Source: Desulfovibrionaceae bacterium (lineage in GTDB: Bacteria; Desulfobacterota; Desulfovibrionia; Desulfovibrionales; Desulfovibrionaceae). Taken from it: a DNA stretch of 64,000 nt. The notes below the pieces were generated by a model. It was not told where the DNA came from and did not search any database. It saw only the letters and a list, made by a program, of their open reading frames with translations. Positions 38,892-44,367 of this stretch are shown here, one piece after another; the stretch's first letter is position 1; each line of letters starts with the position of its first letter. The translations under genes and the position numbers were made by a program. Location: the NCBI GenBank assembly GCA_029011315.1, contig JAQXLA010000019.1, positions 50,569 to 114,568 on the forward strand. The letters are read 5' to 3'.

Positions 38892-41800
38892 ATGAATATT
38901 TTTTTTGATCATGATGACAGAGTGCTCCTGAAAGCCATCAATGAGCGCATTGATTGCGGCCCGGCAGAACAGACAGATACCGATATCAGCAACGGCAATC
39001 TTCACCCGCATGGCATTGTTGAACTGGCAACCAGTCATGAAAGCCGCATGGCGTATGCGGTGATCAACCTGCTCGGCCGCCTTTCAGACGGCAAGGCTGA
39101 AGATCGTCTTGATGCCCTGCGCATCCTGCGCGACGAAGTCATGCACAGTGCCCGCACAACGTTCCGAATCAATACAGCCAGGGTACTTATTCAAATAATG
39201 AAGGAAGTTGTCCGAGCCAGGCAGAGCGAAAAAGTGCAGCTTCGCCTTGTTCACGATTTCCGCAGAGCAATTTCAGGCAATCCCCGACTCATCCGCTCGC
39301 TGCTGCGCCGCCATCATCTGCTGGAAATGCCCGAAGAATGGAACCAGCTCACCATGGATCACCATGTGCATGATTCCAACACCAAAGGACGCAAAACGCC
39401 CACGCATCTGATTATGGACGCCTGGATTAAAGGTATCCGTTATCTAACCGTCGTTTACTTCAACTATATTGACCCACCCGCAGCCCGGGAACTGATGCTG
39501 GCGGCGGAAATCATGGGCATAAGCGTACGCATCGGCATCGAATTTCAGGCACCGTTTCGCGGCCGCTTCATCCGCTTTACCTGGGTACCGCGCGGATTTT
39601 CCGACACGACATCCGTCATTCAGTTTTTGTCAGAACCGTCCGTACGAGATCTGATGAATCTCGGCAGGGAAATTTCCTTGTGGCTGCAAAGCCATATCCT
39701 CGATACGCTGCATCTCTGGAATCGTAAATATCGCCCTGATATTGCCGCAGATCTTGACGTCGATTTTCCGCCGCTTGATGTGAATGAATTTCTGGCCTTC
39801 GTCCATACCGGGCAGGTGTCCTATCTGCATCTGGCGGAATTTATCAACATGAAAATAGCCGCAGCTCTCAAGAGGCATCTCGAACACCAGGATGACAGCG
39901 CAAGCGTATCTAAATGTATCGATATTGATGAGGCGCTGCTCAACCGCCTTTCCGGCTTAACGCCGGAAATCATCCTCGAAAAATGGCTGAATCCCGAATG
40001 CAACCCCGAACTGGAATCGACCAACTCACCGGACGCATCCGATCTCCCGCCGCTTCTGCGGGAACAGCCTTATGATTTGCTGAATCTGCTCGTTTCCCTG
40101 CGCAGCGGCTACCGCATCAGCCTTCAGCTATCCCGCCTTTCCCAGGCGGATGTACTGGAACTTCTCTGGGACTGCCGGGGTCTGATCACGCATCTGGAGA
40201 TCTTCAATCTCAAGGAATGGCAGGAAGGACATCTCGACTGTCTTCGGGAAATCAACGAGCTGCAGATCGCCATCAATGAAGGCAATGCGCCGCACATCAA
40301 ACAGATCATCCGCTCTATTCTCCAGTCTCCTGAGATGAACTCCGAAGATGCCCGTTGCCGCAGAGCCCGCTTTACGGCAATTCTGCGCGACATTCCCCGC
40401 CTGACAGCACCTTATAAGGACAGGCCGCTCAGAGGCAGGGTCGGAACAGATTCAACCAGCCATCTCGGCACGCGCTACGGTATGGGTCTCGCCGTACCGG
40501 CTACTCTGCCCTCAAATGCCCGCAAGGAAATCCGGCGCAAGGATCAGTTCCGTCTGATTCATCTTCCCATTCATCTCGGCCTCAGCTACCGGGAAACCTA
40601 TCTGGAGCCGAAAAACGAAGGTGTCATCAGAGGATTTATCTTCCGTATGCTGCGCCATATCTGGGGATTTCAGCATCTTGGCATGCCCCGCTATTCGGAA
40701 TGGCGCACGCGCGATGCCAATACCCGTTTCTGCGAAAAAGACGGCAACCTCATCACGATGGGCGGAATGTCCAACAGCCGGGATGAAGAGCAGAACGCCA
40801 TCCGAAATCGAAGGGGACTCTGGCCGGGGTTTGAATATCTCAATACGGGTCTGGCAAATTGGGCAAAAATTTTCATTGGCTTTATTCCCGCAATGCTCAC
40901 CTTCCTGTATACGCAGGATTCCCCTCTTCTTGCCTGGTTTGGCGCAGTTATCTGGTTTGCCATCACAGGGGGGCGCAATGTTGTGCAGATGGTGCTTGCC
41001 GGAGGAGGCTTCAAAAAAGGATCGCTGCTCCGATGGCGCAATTATGTCAGCTGGGGCAGGATCTGCGATTCCCTCATGTATACGGGGCTTTCCGTTGTGT
41101 TGCTGGAATGGCTCATCCGCATTCTTCTGCTGGAGCAAGTCTGCGGACTGACAGTCGCAAATGCGCCAATTTTCGTCTTTACCGTCATTTCCATCGCCAA
41201 CAGCTTCTATATCTGCGCCCATAATATCTATCGGGGCTTTCCCCGTGCAGCTATCATCGGCAACATCTTTCGCACCATTCTCGCTATTCCCGTATCCGTG
41301 CTTTACAACGAACTGATGATTCTGCTTCTTCCTCTGATTACGGATATCGATCCGCTTGCCATTGCCGGCCCTGGAGCAGCCATCGTCTCCAAGGCGGCAT
41401 CCGATACTGTGGCAGGCATCATCGAAGGATTCGCAGATATGGCAAACAACTTCCGCCTGCGCCGCTGGGACTATCGGACAAAGCTGAATCTGATTATGGA
41501 GTGCTATGAAAAGCTGGAACTTCTCTTTCCAGATCGCGATATCCTCGATCTCCTTTCCAAACCTGGAAAAGTCGCTCCTCTTATCCGCAATACGGCGCGC
41601 CCCCTGTATCTGGCTTTGATGATCAATGCGCTGGACATGATGTATTTCTGGATGTACCAGCCCTGTTCCCAGCAAACGCTGCGCAAGATCGTCTCTTCCA
41701 TGCTCCCGGAAGAAAAGCAGGTTCTGGCCGGTTCTCAGCACATCCTCATGCAGGTTCGTGAAGTCAGCCTCGTCTTTGTCGACGGGCTGCTCGGACCCAA

Positions 41801-41933
41801 TTTTGCAAAGCCACTGGCCTTTTATCTCGGATGCCATGAAACCTACATCAGAGCTATCGATGCATTGTGCGCCGTGCCTCCGGAATCCCGCGGCACAGAA
41901 ATCCATCCTCAGGAAAAGGCAAACGAAGCATGA
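38892..41933 (+). CDS. Large hypothetical protein: degenerate PHP-like domain plus C-terminal multi-pass membrane region
   Basis: DHHVHD..TKGRKTP (PHP motif I-like), GIEF, GTDSTSH; several hydrophobic helices from about aa 655. Confidence 0.75.
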   Translation: MNIFFDHDDRVLLKAINERIDCGPAEQTDTDISNGNLHPHGIVELATSHESRMAYAVINLLGRLSDGKAEDRLDALRILRDEVMHSARTTFRINTARVLIQIMKEVVRARQSEKVQLRLVHDFRRAISGNPRLIRSLLRRHHLLEMPEEWNQLTMDHHVHDSNTKGRKTPTHLIMDAWIKGIRYLTVVYFNYIDPPAARELMLAAEIMGISVRIGIEFQAPFRGRFIRFTWVPRGFSDTTSVIQFLSEPSVRDLMNLGREISLWLQSHILDTLHLWNRKYRPDIAADLDVDFPPLDVNEFLAFVHTGQVSYLHLAEFINMKIAAALKRHLEHQDDSASVSKCIDIDEALLNRLSGLTPEIILEKWLNPECNPELESTNSPDASDLPPLLREQPYDLLNLLVSLRSGYRISLQLSRLSQADVLELLWDCRGLITHLEIFNLKEWQEGHLDCLREINELQIAINEGNAPHIKQIIRSILQSPEMNSEDARCRRARFTAILRDIPRLTAPYKDRPLRGRVGTDSTSHLGTRYGMGLAVPATLPSNARKEIRRKDQFRLIHLPIHLGLSYRETYLEPKNEGVIRGFIFRMLRHIWGFQHLGMPRYSEWRTRDANTRFCEKDGNLITMGGMSNSRDEEQNAIRNRRGLWPGFEYLNTGLANWAKIFIGFIPAMLTFLYTQDSPLLAWFGAVIWFAITGGRNVVQMVLAGGGFKKGSLLRWRNYVSWGRICDSLMYTGLSVVLLEWLIRILLLEQVCGLTVANAPIFVFTVISIANSFYICAHNIYRGFPRAAIIGNIFRTILAIPVSVLYNELMILLLPLITDIDPLAIAGPGAAIVSKAASDTVAGIIEGFADMANNFRLRRWDYRTKLNLIMECYEKLELLFPDRDILDLLSKPGKVAPLIRNTARPLYLALMINALDMMYFWMYQPCSQQTLRKIVSSMLPEEKQVLAGSQHILMQVREVSLVFVDGLLGPNFAKPLAFYLGCHETYIRAIDALCAVPPESRGTEIHPQEKANEA

Positions 41934-42866: not shown

Positions 42867-42878
42867 TTTCTCTTGTGT

Positions 42879-42955
42879 GCGGCTGTGGCCCAGCTGGATA
42901 GAGCAACAGGCTACGAACCTGTAGGCCGGGAGTTCGAATCTCTCCAGCCGCACCA
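42879..42955 (+). tRNA. tRNA-Arg(ACG)
   Basis: Acceptor GCGGCTG/CAGCCGC, D-arm with AGCTGGATAGAGC, anticodon stem ACAGG/CCTGT with loop CT-ACG-AA, GTTCGAAT T-loop, encoded ACCA end. Confidence 0.97.
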
Positions 42956-42964
42956 GAATGCAAT

Positions 42965-42994
42965 GAAGAGCTTCGGAGCAATCCGAAGCTCTTC
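42965..42994 (+). terminator. Hairpin downstream of tRNA-Arg
   Basis: Perfect 13-bp stem GAAGAGCTTCGGA/TCCGAAGCTCTTC with a GCAA tetraloop; weak U-tract. Confidence 0.75.
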
Positions 42995-43064
42995 TGTTAT
43001 GCGCAAAATCCATCATGATTGTTATTCCGGCATTTTCATTGCAACGACAGGTACGGAATTCAAA

Positions 43065-44270
43065 ATGAGCCGACTTGAAGAACTTATCGCCGAACTCTGC
43101 CCGAATGGGGTGGAGTCTAAAACTCTGGGAGAACTTGCGACTGATATTTTCCGAGGTTCAGGTATCACCAGAGACCAAGTCCGTGAGAGTGGAACCCCCT
43201 GTGTAAGATATGGTGAAATCTATACGACTTATGGTGTATGGTTTGAAGAGTGTGTGTCATTCACTGACGAAAGCATAATTCCCAGCAAAAAATATTTTGA
43301 ATATGGCGACATCCTTTTTGCTATCACAGGTGAAAAGGTTGAGGATATTGCCAAATCGTGCGTGTATATTGGAAAGGAAAAGTGTCTCGCTGGCGGTGAT
43401 ATCGTCGTTATGAAGCACACGCAAAACCCAAAGTATATGGGATACGCTCTTTCTACGAGTTCAGCACAGGAACAAAAAAGTAAAGGAAAAGTCAAAAGTA
43501 AGGTCGTTCATTCAAGCGTTCCTTCAATAAAAGAAATCAAAATCCCCGTTCCACCTCTTCCCGTCCAAGAAGAGATAGTGAGGATATTAGATAATTTCGC
43601 CGAACTTACCGCCGAACTTACCGCCGAACTTACCGCCGAACTTACCGCCGAACTTACCAAAAGAAAGCAACAATATCAATATTATACAGAACATCTTTTC
43701 TTAGGCGATATGAATACGATCGTTCCGCTGGGAGATATCGCAGATATTGGAACTGGAAGTAGCAATACTAATGAAGAAACAGAAGATGGAGAATATCCCT
43801 TCTTTGTTCGTTCACAAGAAGTGCGAAAAAAAGATACTTGGGAATATGATGAAACGGCAATTATTACCGCCGGTGATGGCGTTGGGGTTGGCAAGGTTTT
43901 CCACTATATAGAAGGAAAGTATGCTCTTCATCAGAGAGCCTATCGCATTCATATTACAGCCCAAAATATCCTTCCCAAATATTTCTTCTACTATATGAAA
44001 AACACTTTTTTTTCTTATATCACACGAAACGCAGTCCACGCTTCTGTGACATCAATCAGAAGGAGAATGTTAGACAATTATCCCGTTCCCGTTCCCCCGC
44101 TGGAAGAGCAGGAACGCATTGTGGCTATCCTAGACCGCTTTGACGCTCTGTGTAACGACCTCACCAGCGGTCTTCCCGCCGAGATTGAGGCACGGAAGAA
44201 GCAATACGAATACTACCGGGACAAACTTTTGACGTTCAGGCAACGTTCCGGATCTGCTTTGAGCAACTAG
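43065..44270 (+). CDS. hsdS: Type I restriction-modification specificity subunit (type IC-like), solitary
   Basis: MSRLEELIAELCPNGVE N-terminus, two TRDs, conserved IPVPPLPVQEEIVRILDNF and VPPLEEQERIVAILDRFD...GLPAEIEARKKQYEYYRDKLLTF; spot counts of 32-40% GC. Confidence 0.95.
   Translation: MSRLEELIAELCPNGVESKTLGELATDIFRGSGITRDQVRESGTPCVRYGEIYTTYGVWFEECVSFTDESIIPSKKYFEYGDILFAITGEKVEDIAKSCVYIGKEKCLAGGDIVVMKHTQNPKYMGYALSTSSAQEQKSKGKVKSKVVHSSVPSIKEIKIPVPPLPVQEEIVRILDNFAELTAELTAELTAELTAELTKRKQQYQYYTEHLFLGDMNTIVPLGDIADIGTGSSNTNEETEDGEYPFFVRSQEVRKKDTWEYDETAIITAGDGVGVGKVFHYIEGKYALHQRAYRIHITAQNILPKYFFYYMKNTFFSYITRNAVHASVTSIRRRMLDNYPVPVPPLEEQERIVAILDRFDALCNDLTSGLPAEIEARKKQYEYYRDKLLTFRQRSGSALSN
43599..43658 (+). 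repeat. Five perfect tandem copies of 12-bp GCCGAACTTACC (AELT x5) in the HsdS spacer helix
   Basis: Read directly at 43599, 43611, 43623, 43635 and 43647. Confidence 0.97.
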
Positions 44271-44303: not shown

Positions 44304-44349
44304 GCAGAAGGCCGCATCATGAAAATTTCTTCACAATGCGGCCTTCTGC
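44304..44349. terminator. Long hairpin between convergent hsdS and the hydrogenase-like operon
   Basis: GCAGAAGGCCGCAT (44304-44317) / ATGCGGCCTTCTGC (44336-44349), a perfect 14-bp stem. Confidence 0.7.
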
Positions 44350-44367
44350 AATCTTGTTAGAACAGGC

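What the first reader, a model, noticed from the sequence alone, without database searches (positions are those of the whole stretch)
43599..43658. Five perfect 12-bp repeats in the HsdS spacer: a slippage-tunable recognition site
GCCGAACTTACC x5 encodes (AELT)5 in the helix separating the two TRDs. In EcoR124I versus EcoR124II, two versus three TAEL copies change the spacer of the bipartite site from 6 to 7 bp (established). Five copies with no synonymous divergence suggest recent expansion by slipped-strand mispairing. In-frame gain or loss would switch specificity without inactivating the gene, a candidate phasevarion or anti-phage diversification switch.
Basis: partly seen in the sequence, partly recalled or inferred. 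Interest (0 to 1): 0.65.

Follow-up and report, generated by a model that had tools for sequence, protein, structure and literature searches.

The report
Repeat tract in a stranded HsdS
Five identical 12-base repeats lengthen the helix between the two DNA-reading domains of a type I restriction specificity gene, a known way of retuning such enzymes, but here the gene stands alone and its partner genes are broken, so the switch is probably idle.

Summary
GCCGAACTTACC occurs five times without a mismatch at 43599-43658 and encodes (AELT)5 inside the long central helix of a two-TRD HsdS (43065-44270) of the EcoR124/type IC kind.

Tetra-amino-acid repeat number sets the spacer of the bipartite site, and it varies naturally in Neisseria and Xylella. 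This is therefore a new member of a known kind.

- **Register:** measured between fixed anchors, the linker is 21 aa against 13 in the solved EcoR124 HsdS. Five AELT therefore equal "four TAEL" in the literature's count, which predicts about N8.
- **Rarity:** 21 aa is rare but not unique. It occurred in 2 of 106 sampled metagenomic relatives, and 14 HsdS in 185,579 species genomes have at least 5 perfect units.
- **Perfect units:** DNA-identical units are the family norm, so they do not date the expansion.
- **Instability:** paralogs in the same genome carry the same unit once and twice.
- **Main weakness:** the gene is solitary behind tRNA-Arg. The only type IC hsdM and hsdR in the assembly are truncated remnants on other contigs, so a working switch or phasevarion is unlikely here.

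The parts
42879..42955 (+). tRNA-Arg (anticodon ACG) immediately upstream of the hsdS gene
   Evidence: ARAGORN. The long ORF listed from 42873 is read-through of this tRNA.
42965..42994 (.). Perfect 13-bp-arm hairpin with a 4-nt loop, between the tRNA and hsdS
   Evidence: the repeat finder I3. It is also listed weakly as terminator-like.
43065..44270 (+). Solitary hsdS gene, 401 aa, type IC-like. The start at ATG 43065 (MSRLEELIAELCPNG) matches the N-termini of homologues.
   Evidence: Pfam PF01420 x2. phmmer to EcoR124 HsdS 7BST_A gave E=7e-32. Homologues start MSRLDELIAELCP. Foldseek top hits are HsdS structures: 1YF2, 5YBB_D (TM 0.66) and 7BST_A.
43107..43544 (+). Target recognition domain 1 (approx. 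residues 15-160)
   Evidence: Variable between paralogues and conserved with homologues P0007-P0126. The AF2 model shows a mixed beta/alpha domain.
43557..43700 (+). Central conserved-region helix (residues 165-212), one arm of the antiparallel coiled coil
   Evidence: AF2 secondary structure H165-212. Aligns to the EcoR124 central region.
43599..43658 (+). The finding: (GCCGAACTTACC)x5 encoding (AELT)5, residues 179-198
43701..44099 (+). Target recognition domain 2 (approx. residues 213-345)
   Evidence: Pfam best stretch 283-440 of the long ORF. Alignments.
44100..44228 (+). C-terminal conserved-region helix (residues 346-388), the second arm of the coiled coil. 17 aa lie between the F and RKK anchors, as in EcoR124.
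   Evidence: AF2 H346-388. Alignment to 7BST_A residues 300-397.
44304..44349 (.). Hairpin with 20-nt arms between the convergent hsdS and hydrogenase-type genes, likely a bidirectional terminator
   Evidence: the repeat finder I1. A terminator-like site at 44337-44350.

Best explanation
The tract is the tetra-amino-acid repeat (TAEL/AELT type) that characterises the central conserved region of type IC HsdS specificity subunits. Here it has expanded to five DNA-identical units, by replication slippage or unequal exchange.

In a working enzyme this helix pairs antiparallel with the C-terminal conserved helix and sets how far apart, and at what rotation, the two TRDs sit on DNA. Each added unit lengthens the non-specific spacer of the bipartite site by about 1 bp. 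Measured between fixed anchors (LDxF ... RKxQY) the linker is 21 aa. That is two units longer than the solved EcoR124 HsdS (13 aa, N6 form) and one longer than the 17-aa form (N7). The predicted site is half-site-N8-half-site, which is an inference.

In this genome, however, the gene is a stranded piece of a dismembered, horizontally acquired type IC system:
- It sits alone behind tRNA-Arg, in a low-GC patch.
- The matching hsdM survives only as an N-terminal fragment without the catalytic domain.
- The matching hsdR survives without its nuclease domain.

The tract is therefore most likely a latent or neutral length variant rather than a live specificity switch.

Shown: the repeat, its position in the helix, family membership by sequence and fold, the length series among paralogues and relatives, and the truncation of hsdM and hsdR in the assembly. 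Inferred: slippage as the cause, the N8 prediction, and present inactivity.
For: - **Repeat and position:** repeat and frame. Two Methylase_S domains. EcoR124 HsdS alignment with the gap exactly at the repeats. Continuous helix 165-212 in the AF2 model and HsdS fold hits.
- **Linker lengths are quantised as 4n+1:** the top 120 homologues sharing the TRDs have 9, 13 or 17 aa. A sample of 106 metagenomic RILDNF-xELT HsdS gave 5:2, 9:9, 13:48, 17:45, 21:2.
- **Instability within the genome:** paralogues C19:134870-136009 and C23:174-1298 have 95-98% identical central-region DNA and the same unit x1 and x2.
- **Orphan state:** neighbours are a tRNA, a holB-like gene and hydrogenase-type genes. The type IC HsdM is found only for residues 11-240 of 530 (C11:4353-5042). 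It matches TIGR00497 positions 1-229 of 515, ends just before motif I, and is 90% identical to the HsdM beside the closest hsdS relative. The type IC HsdR is found only for residues 292-1038 (C13). Both truncation points are internal to contigs.
- **Other methyltransferase genes are unlikely partners:** by length and domain order as read from the sequences (my reading, no family search run on them) they look self-contained, or they belong to another Type I family at 25-27% identity.
- **Horizontal acquisition:** GC is 0.39-0.44 in the gene against about 0.53 in the flanks. The gene is absent from 14 same-genus genomes. The closest relative lies in an hsdM-fic-hsdS-hsdR operon.
- **Literature:** PMC3874165, PMC7383803, PMC6789123, bioRxiv 10.1101/2022.09.01.506293.
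Against: - **Intact paralogues:** four full-length hsdS paralogues with no stops persist in a 1.49-Mb genome. This is unexpected for long-dead genes. dN/dS against the nearest relative is 0.054, although dS is saturated and most of that history was probably spent in other hosts.
- **Incomplete assembly:** there are 26 contigs, and one contig (C16) ends 50 nt into yet another hsdS copy. An intact hsdM/hsdR in unassembled sequence cannot be excluded.
- **Long tracts elsewhere:** tracts of at least 5 units in other genomes usually sit beside full-length type IC hsdM, so length alone does not imply decay.
- **Not measured:** no expression, methylome or read data were available.
Confidence: 0.6

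Rival explanations
1. Live trans-acting specificity subunit. An intact type IC HsdM (with or without HsdR) exists in the real genome but not in the assembly. This hsdS, like the stacked solitary hsdS genes of Lactococcus, assembles with it in trans. Gain or loss of 12-bp units then switches the methylated and restricted motif between N6, N7, N8 and so on within the population.
For: - The ORF is intact, with strong long-term purifying selection.
- Several intact paralogues exist. Three of them carry a classical (GGAAA)8 on/off tract, which suggests a phase-variable family.
- The assembly is fragmented, and one hsdS copy is cut by a contig end.
- Solitary hsdS genes that work with hsdM/hsdR encoded elsewhere in the cell are proposed in type IC systems, supported there by a phage-resistance test (PMC3138775).
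- Natural copy-number variation with methylome change is documented (PMC6789123).
Against: - Six-frame searches with two full-length type IC HsdM and one HsdR find only truncated copies, at points internal to contigs.
- The assembly is rated 100% complete.
- No promoter-like site lies in front of the gene.
- No population data are available.
Confidence: 0.2
2. Recombination reservoir. The solitary hsdS genes are silent cassettes. Their 50-160-bp conserved segments, 93-98% identical, allow homologous exchange of TRDs and of central-region repeat blocks between paralogues. The 1/2/5 series would then arise by unequal exchange or gene conversion rather than by replication slippage at this locus.
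For: - Three conserved blocks shared with the paralogue 40 kb away on the opposite strand are 93-98% identical, while the TRDs are unrelated.
- Domain shuffling between lactococcal type IC hsdS genes is in the literature, cited in PMC3138775.
Against: - It still needs an expressed acceptor locus with hsdM, and none is seen.
- No recombinase or inverted-repeat shufflon architecture lies next to the gene.
- This explains the origin of the tract, not a current function.
Confidence: 0.12
3. Assembly or sequencing artefact. The true copy number differs, and the five units reflect mis-collapse or mis-expansion.
For: Repeats are a known source of assembly error. Reads could not be inspected.
Against: - The tract is only 60 bp with unique flanks, shorter than ordinary reads.
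- The frame is preserved.
- Tracts of 5 to at least 10 identical units occur in the same position of independent HsdS genes in 14 other genomes and 2 metagenome contigs.
Confidence: 0.03

Closest known systems
EcoR124I / EcoR124II (type IC) HsdS central-region TAEL repeats
   Same: - Same family by sequence (E=7e-32 to PDB 7BST chain A) and by fold.
- Same position of the repeat in the central conserved helix, and the same 12-bp / 4-aa unit (AELT is TAEL in another register).
- The same C-terminal conserved region, with 17 aa between anchors.
- Two versus three TAEL gives N6 versus N7 (PMC3874165).
   Different: - The linker is 21 aa against 13 (EcoR124I form) or 17 (EcoR124II), one unit beyond the characterised natural range.
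- The gene is chromosomal and solitary, not in an hsdM-hsdS-hsdR cluster.
- The cognate hsdM and hsdR are truncated in this genome.
NgoAV of Neisseria gonorrhoeae (type IC, LEAT repeats)
   Same: Natural variation of the tetra-amino-acid repeat number (0-3) between strains. PacBio data show GAC-N6-TGC with 1 repeat and GAC-N7-TGC with 2 repeats (PMC6789123).
   Different: NgoAV has its hsdM and is demonstrably active. The repeat is LEAT, with fewer copies. Here neither activity nor strain variation could be shown.
Xylella fastidiosa XfaII hsdS 12-base tract (LEAE repeats)
   Same: A 12-base repeat in the core conserved region varies from 0.75 to 3.75 units within one allele, and reaches 11.75 in one strain. 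That paper also reports hsdS retained after deletion of hsdM in subsp. morus (bioRxiv 10.1101/2022.09.01.506293).
   Different: Different repeat sequence and host. XfaII hsdS lies between hsdM and hsdR.
Stacked solitary hsdS genes of Lactococcus lactis plasmids (type IC)
   Same: Stand-alone hsdS genes without adjacent hsdM or hsdR, with several per cell (PMC3138775).
   Different: In Lactococcus an intact chromosomal hsdM/hsdR is present and phage resistance was measured. Here no intact partner is found, and the copies are chromosomal, next to tRNA and rRNA genes.
SSR-controlled phase-variable Type I hsdS genes (Atack et al., PMC7383803)
   Same: Three paralogues in this genome have a (GGAAA)8 tract between an upstream ATG and the hsdS body. 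Close homologues elsewhere have a pentanucleotide tract, read as (SRAEQ)n, leading into a third TRD. That paper describes such 'extended' HsdS.
   Different: The gene of this finding has neither of these frameshifting tracts. Its repeat is in-frame by construction, so it changes length, not on/off state.

Membership tests
Type I R-M specificity subunit (HsdS) | Two target recognition domains of the Methylase_S type separated by conserved helical regions | tested here: met
   PF01420 hit with two stretches, 132 bits against a cut-off of 22. The AF2 model has two mixed domains and two long helices. Foldseek: 1YF2 E=2e-19, 5YBB_D TM 0.66.
Type IC family (EcoR124-like) | Sequence similarity of the conserved regions to EcoR124/EcoDXXI HsdS, with the domain order N-TRD, central CR, C-TRD, C-terminal CR | tested here: met
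   phmmer to 7BST_A gave E=7e-32. The central (IVRILD.F...RK.QY.YY) and C-terminal (ILD.FD.L.N..T.GLP.EIE.R.KQYEYYRD.L) regions both align. 1035 plasmid records match, all below 60% identity; the best listed, on Escherichia, Klebsiella, Citrobacter and Enterobacter plasmids, are about 45% identical.
Type IC family (EcoR124-like) | Tandem tetra-amino-acid repeats (TAEL, LEAT, SEAL or TSEL type) in the central conserved region | tested here: met
   (AELT)5 at residues 179-198. The feature is described as characteristic in PMC10030836 and PMC3874165.
Type IC family (EcoR124-like) | Genetic complementation with type IC HsdM/HsdR (the formal definition of a Type I family) | not testable with these tools
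   Needs expression with a type IC HsdM/HsdR in a laboratory strain.
Complete Type I R-M system | Cognate intact hsdM (and hsdR) present in the genome | tested here: not met
   HsdM is present for residues 11-240 only and HsdR for residues 292-1038 only. Both are on other contigs, with truncation points inside the contigs. Caveat: the draft assembly has 26 contigs.
Phase-variable Type I system / phasevarion | Hypermutable repeat tract in hsdS or hsdM | tested here: met
   Five identical 12-bp units. The same unit occurs x1 and x2 in paralogues.
Phase-variable Type I system / phasevarion | Tract length heterogeneous within a population or between strains of the organism | not testable with these tools
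The exact protein and neighbouring proteins are not on record elsewhere. An exact DNA pattern gave 0 metagenome hits.
Phase-variable Type I system / phasevarion | Active methyltransferase whose motif changes with the tract and alters gene expression | tested here: inconclusive
   No intact cognate methyltransferase gene is in the assembly. Methylome and expression data are not available.

The most novel reading that the evidence does not exclude
A small genome that has lost the catalytic halves of its type IC hsdM and hsdR keeps four to six intact hsdS paralogues. They sit beside tRNA and rRNA genes and carry three kinds of hypermutable tract: the 12-mer x1/2/5, (GGAAA)8 and poly-G. If they are maintained by selection, solitary HsdS proteins would have a role without their own methyltransferase. 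They might serve a non-cognate methyltransferase, or act as DNA-binding proteins whose site spacing is tuned by the repeat.
Probability: 0.06. Interest if true: 0.65.

Novelty: new member of a known kind. Interest (0 to 1): 0.3.

Why it matters
Spacer tuning by repeat number in type IC HsdS is textbook knowledge. This locus adds an example rather than a principle.

Its modest value lies in two things:
- It offers a natural length series. Closely related TRD pairs (65-85% identical) occur with 13-, 17- and now 21-aa linkers, and the same central module occurs with 1, 2 and 5 units inside one genome. That series could be used to test how far the one-unit-per-base-pair rule extends, and how the antiparallel coiled coil accommodates a central helix longer than its partner. 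The field's review (PMC3874165) states that this is unresolved.
- It shows intact specificity genes outliving their broken methylase and nuclease genes in a reduced genome.

For annotation, it is a caution against calling a phasevarion from a repeat tract without checking for the partner genes.

Tried and rejected
- **Reads:** Per-read copy number is untested.
- **Conspecific variants:**
  - Exact-sequence look-ups of the HsdS with three alternative starts and of the neighbouring hydrogenase subunit found nothing on record.
  - An exact 33-nt pattern spanning the left flank and first unit gave 0 metagenome hits.
  - The best protein relative is only 84% identical.
- **Empty-site comparison:** the two same-genus genomes that share the hydrogenase operon (64% aa identity) lose synteny right after it, with tRNA-Leu in place of tRNA-Arg and no holB. 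No pre-insertion site could be shown.
- **att-like repeats:** no direct repeat of the tRNA 3' end flanks the gene.
- **Original papers:** Gubler and Bickle 1991 (PMC452739) and Gubler et al. 1992 (PMC556444) are not held. What engineered four-repeat enzymes recognise could not be verified, and nothing in this report rests on it.
- **Alternative partners:** the C3 hsdRMS is another Type I family (25-27% identity, TIGR00497 score below cut-off). The C7 hsdM looks decayed, with its N-terminal domain in another frame and an hsdS fragment carrying a stop. The 1633-, 909- and 853-aa methyltransferase-containing proteins appear self-contained by length and domain order as read from the sequences; no family search was run on them. 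All were rejected as likely partners.
- **Long tract as a sign of decay:** rejected as a general rule, because long tracts elsewhere mostly sit in apparently complete operons.

Full report
**1. Observation**

The window holds one outstanding tandem array at 43598-43658: period 12, 5.1 copies, 100% identity. Read directly, it is GCCGAACTTACC five times at 43599-43658. It lies in the only long ORF of that stretch (42873-44270, + strand), where it reads (AELT)5.

The first 90 nt of that ORF are read-through of a tRNA-Arg(ACG) gene at 42879-42955. The real start is the ATG at 43065 (MSRLEELIAELCPNG...), the same N-terminus as in the closest homologues. This gives a 401-aa protein.

**2. What the gene is**

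- The protein has two Methylase_S (PF01420) stretches.
- Its best solved relative is the EcoR124 specificity subunit, PDB 7BST chain A (E=7e-32). Both the central region (IVRILD-F ... RK-QY-YY) and the C-terminal region (ILDRFD-L-N-LTSGLPAEIE-R-KQYEYYRD-LL-F) align.
- An AlphaFold2 model built on 37 sequences has mean pLDDT 80.6. It shows two mixed alpha/beta domains and two long helices, 165-212 and 346-388. The repeat (residues 179-198) sits in the middle of the first helix.
- Foldseek returns HsdS structures first: 1YF2, 5YBB_D at TM 0.66, and 7BST_A.
- tblastn finds 1035 plasmid records, all below 60% identity; the best listed, about 45% identical, are on Escherichia, Klebsiella, Citrobacter and Enterobacter plasmids.

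The gene is therefore a type IC-like HsdS by sequence, fold and the family's hallmark repeat. Formal membership, which is defined by complementation, cannot be tested here.

**3. Register of the repeat**

In the 7BST chain the stretch between the F of ILDKF and the R of RKKQY is TALTAELTAELNM, 13 aa. This is the form the literature counts as two TAEL repeats (GAA-N6-RTCG). Here the same stretch is AELTx5 plus K, 21 aa. The C-terminal helix has 17 aa between the equivalent anchors in both proteins.

Five AELT therefore correspond to EcoR124I plus two units, or 'four TAEL'. They do not represent a jump from 2-3 to 5. By the documented rule of one unit per base pair (PMC3874165; NgoAV N6 to N7 with one more LEAT, PMC6789123), the expected spacer is one longer than for the 17-aa form. 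That is about N8 if the EcoR124 calibration holds for these TRDs. This is an extrapolation, not a result.

**4. How unusual the tract is**

- Among the 120 best homologues, most of which share both TRDs at 65-85% identity, the linker is 9 aa (2), 13 aa (50) or 17 aa (57). None has 21.
Lengths are strictly 4n+1.
- A scan of one genome for each of 185,579 species for at least 4.75 perfect AELT units found 16 places, 14 of them in HsdS central regions. They reach 7 units (a Clostridia MAG), a longer run still in Suttonella ornithocola (about 9 AELT by eye in the printed peptide; the script counted only part of it) and at least 10 (Oxalobacter sp., cut by a contig end).
- Most of these long-tract genes sit next to a full-length type IC hsdM, and often hsdR.

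So 21 aa is at the upper tail but not unique, and long tracts occur in apparently complete systems.

**5. 'No synonymous divergence'**

In the metagenome sample, 38 of 48 13-aa linkers and 31 of 45 17-aa linkers consist entirely of DNA-identical units. All long tracts in genomes are also DNA-identical. Perfect identity is the normal state of this repeat. It is consistent with continual slippage or homogenisation across the family, but it is not evidence that this particular expansion is specially recent.

**6. Direct evidence of length change**

The genome (1.49 Mb, 26 contigs; the window is C19:50569-114568) has three further full-length type IC-like hsdS paralogues and remnants of two more.

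- C19:134870-136009 has 96-98% identical DNA on both sides of the tract and the same unit once (LDNF-AELT-KRKQQYQYY).
- C23:174-1298 has similarly near-identical flanks and the same unit twice.
- A third copy, C17:136975-238231 in genome coordinates C17:136975-138231, has three degenerate units (SELTRELTRELEL).

One central module thus exists at 1, 2 and 5 units in a single genome. This is the best available substitute for the read-level test and supports slippage or unequal exchange as the source.

**7. Context: the weak point of the functional interpretation**

The neighbours are a holB-like gene, the tRNA, and, convergent on the other strand, hydrogenase/complex-I-type genes. No hsdM or hsdR is nearby. 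A perfect 13-bp hairpin follows the tRNA, and a hairpin with 20-nt arms follows hsdS. No promoter-like site precedes the gene.

Evidence for horizontal acquisition:
- GC falls to 0.39-0.44 within the gene, against about 0.53 in the flanks.
- None of 14 same-genus genomes has the gene.
- The nearest relative (84% aa, a Logan contig) sits in hsdM-fic-hsdS-hsdR.

State of the partner genes, genome-wide:
- Full-length type IC HsdM queries match only residues 11-240 of 530, at C11:4353-5042.
  - That ORF ends just before methyltransferase motif I.
  - It matches TIGR00497 positions 1-229 of 515.
  - It is 90% identical to the HsdM of the relative's operon.
- A type IC HsdR query matches only residues 292-1038, at C13:54975-57134. 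The first 288 residues of the relative's HsdR, where the nuclease domain lies (placement from prior knowledge of EcoR124I HsdR, not tested here), find nothing.
- Both truncation points are inside contigs.
- The one intact Type I system (C3:17879-23073) is of another family, 25-27% identical with a TIGR00497 score below cut-off.
- A second hsdM (C7) has its N-terminal domain in another frame and an hsdS fragment with a stop.
- The other PF02384-bearing proteins, of 1633, 909 and 853 aa, look self-contained (Type ISP- or Type IIG/IIL-like) by length and domain order as I read their sequences; no family search was run on them.

On the assembly as it stands, this hsdS has no methyltransferase to work with.

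**8. Reasons for caution about 'relic'**

- Four hsdS ORFs are intact.
- dN/dS against the closest relative is 0.054, although dS is saturated at 1.7 and mostly reflects history elsewhere.
- The assembly is a draft.
- Contig C16 ends 50 nt into yet another hsdS 5' end, so some hsdS-linked sequence is unassembled.

I put about 0.2 on a live trans-acting system and 0.6 on a stranded, currently idle gene.

**9. Comparison with what is known**

- The mechanism is that of EcoR124I/II (PMC3874165).
- The natural-variation precedent is NgoAV: 0-3 LEAT, with N6/N7 confirmed by PacBio (PMC6789123).
- XfaII of Xylella has a 12-base tract of 0.75-11.75 units. That paper also reports hsdS retained after hsdM deletion (bioRxiv 10.1101/2022.09.01.506293).
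- Solitary type IC hsdS genes are known from Lactococcus (PMC3138775).
- Atack et al. (PMC7383803) explicitly discuss the TAEL coiled-coil repeat in the phasevarion context.

Nothing here lies outside these precedents, so the locus is a new member of a known kind.

**10. Limits**

- No conspecific sequence was retrievable.
- The primary papers on engineered repeat numbers were not held.
- The AF2 tool returns no coordinates, so TRD spacing could not be measured.

Noticed in passing
Same genome, outside the window: C23:1261-1469, C17:136797-137012, C16:12862-13068 (contig end): Three hsdS paralogues share a roughly 210-nt 5' module with poly-G runs (G6-G10). It carries a (GGAAA)8 tract between an upstream ATG (MNQEEAKIEEFLL...) and the hsdS body. 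With 8 units the ATG is out of frame in all three copies. Six or nine units would restore the frame. This looks like a classical frameshifting on/off tract.
   Followed up: partly
Same genome: C19:134870-136009 (-) and C23:174-1298 (-): These hsdS paralogues have unrelated TRDs but nearly identical conserved blocks. They carry the same GCCGAACTTACC unit once and twice. The first lies 40 kb from the finding in inverted orientation and shares 93-98% identical blocks of 45-159 bp with it.
   Followed up: yes
Same genome: C23:1-97 (5S rRNA) next to hsdS at C23:174-1298; contig ends C17_R and C14_R: One hsdS copy is convergent with the 3' end of an rRNA operon. Rfam finds 5S at 63 bits, cut by the contig end. 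Two other contig ends carry the same hsdS 3' end and downstream sequence, one of them only a C-terminal remnant (C14:29262-29399). hsdS copies thus seem to border rrn operons, and the finding's copy borders a tRNA.
   Followed up: partly
Same genome: C11:4302-5042 (-) and C13:54972-57134 (-): These are truncated type IC hsdM (N-terminal 246 aa, ending before motif I) and hsdR (720 aa, without the N-terminal nuclease part). They lie on different contigs. The hsdR remnant abuts ORFs that I guessed to be phage-like; this was not checked.
   Followed up: yes
Homologues P0008-P0108 (metagenome proteins): Many close homologues carry (SRAEQ)n after the second conserved region, that is, a pentanucleotide repeat read in frame. 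Lengths vary in steps of 5 aa. In the 588-638-aa forms the tract reads through into a third TRD and a third conserved region. These are 'extended' three-TRD HsdS of the kind described by Atack et al.
   Followed up: no
window 38892-41933 (+): A 1013-aa ORF with a hydrophobic C-terminal half has no Pfam-A family at E<=0.001.
   Followed up: no
Same genome: C1:5347-10248 (-): A 1633-aa protein that, by my reading of its sequence, has an N-terminal nuclease-like region, a helicase-like region, a gamma-type methyltransferase (NPPY) and a long C-terminal part. It looks like a single-polypeptide Type ISP restriction-modification enzyme. Only a weak PF02384 match was actually computed.
   Followed up: no
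L187:4113-4652 (Logan contig holding the closest hsdS relative): A Fic-domain gene (179 aa) sits between hsdM and hsdS in the operon of the nearest relative.
   Followed up: no
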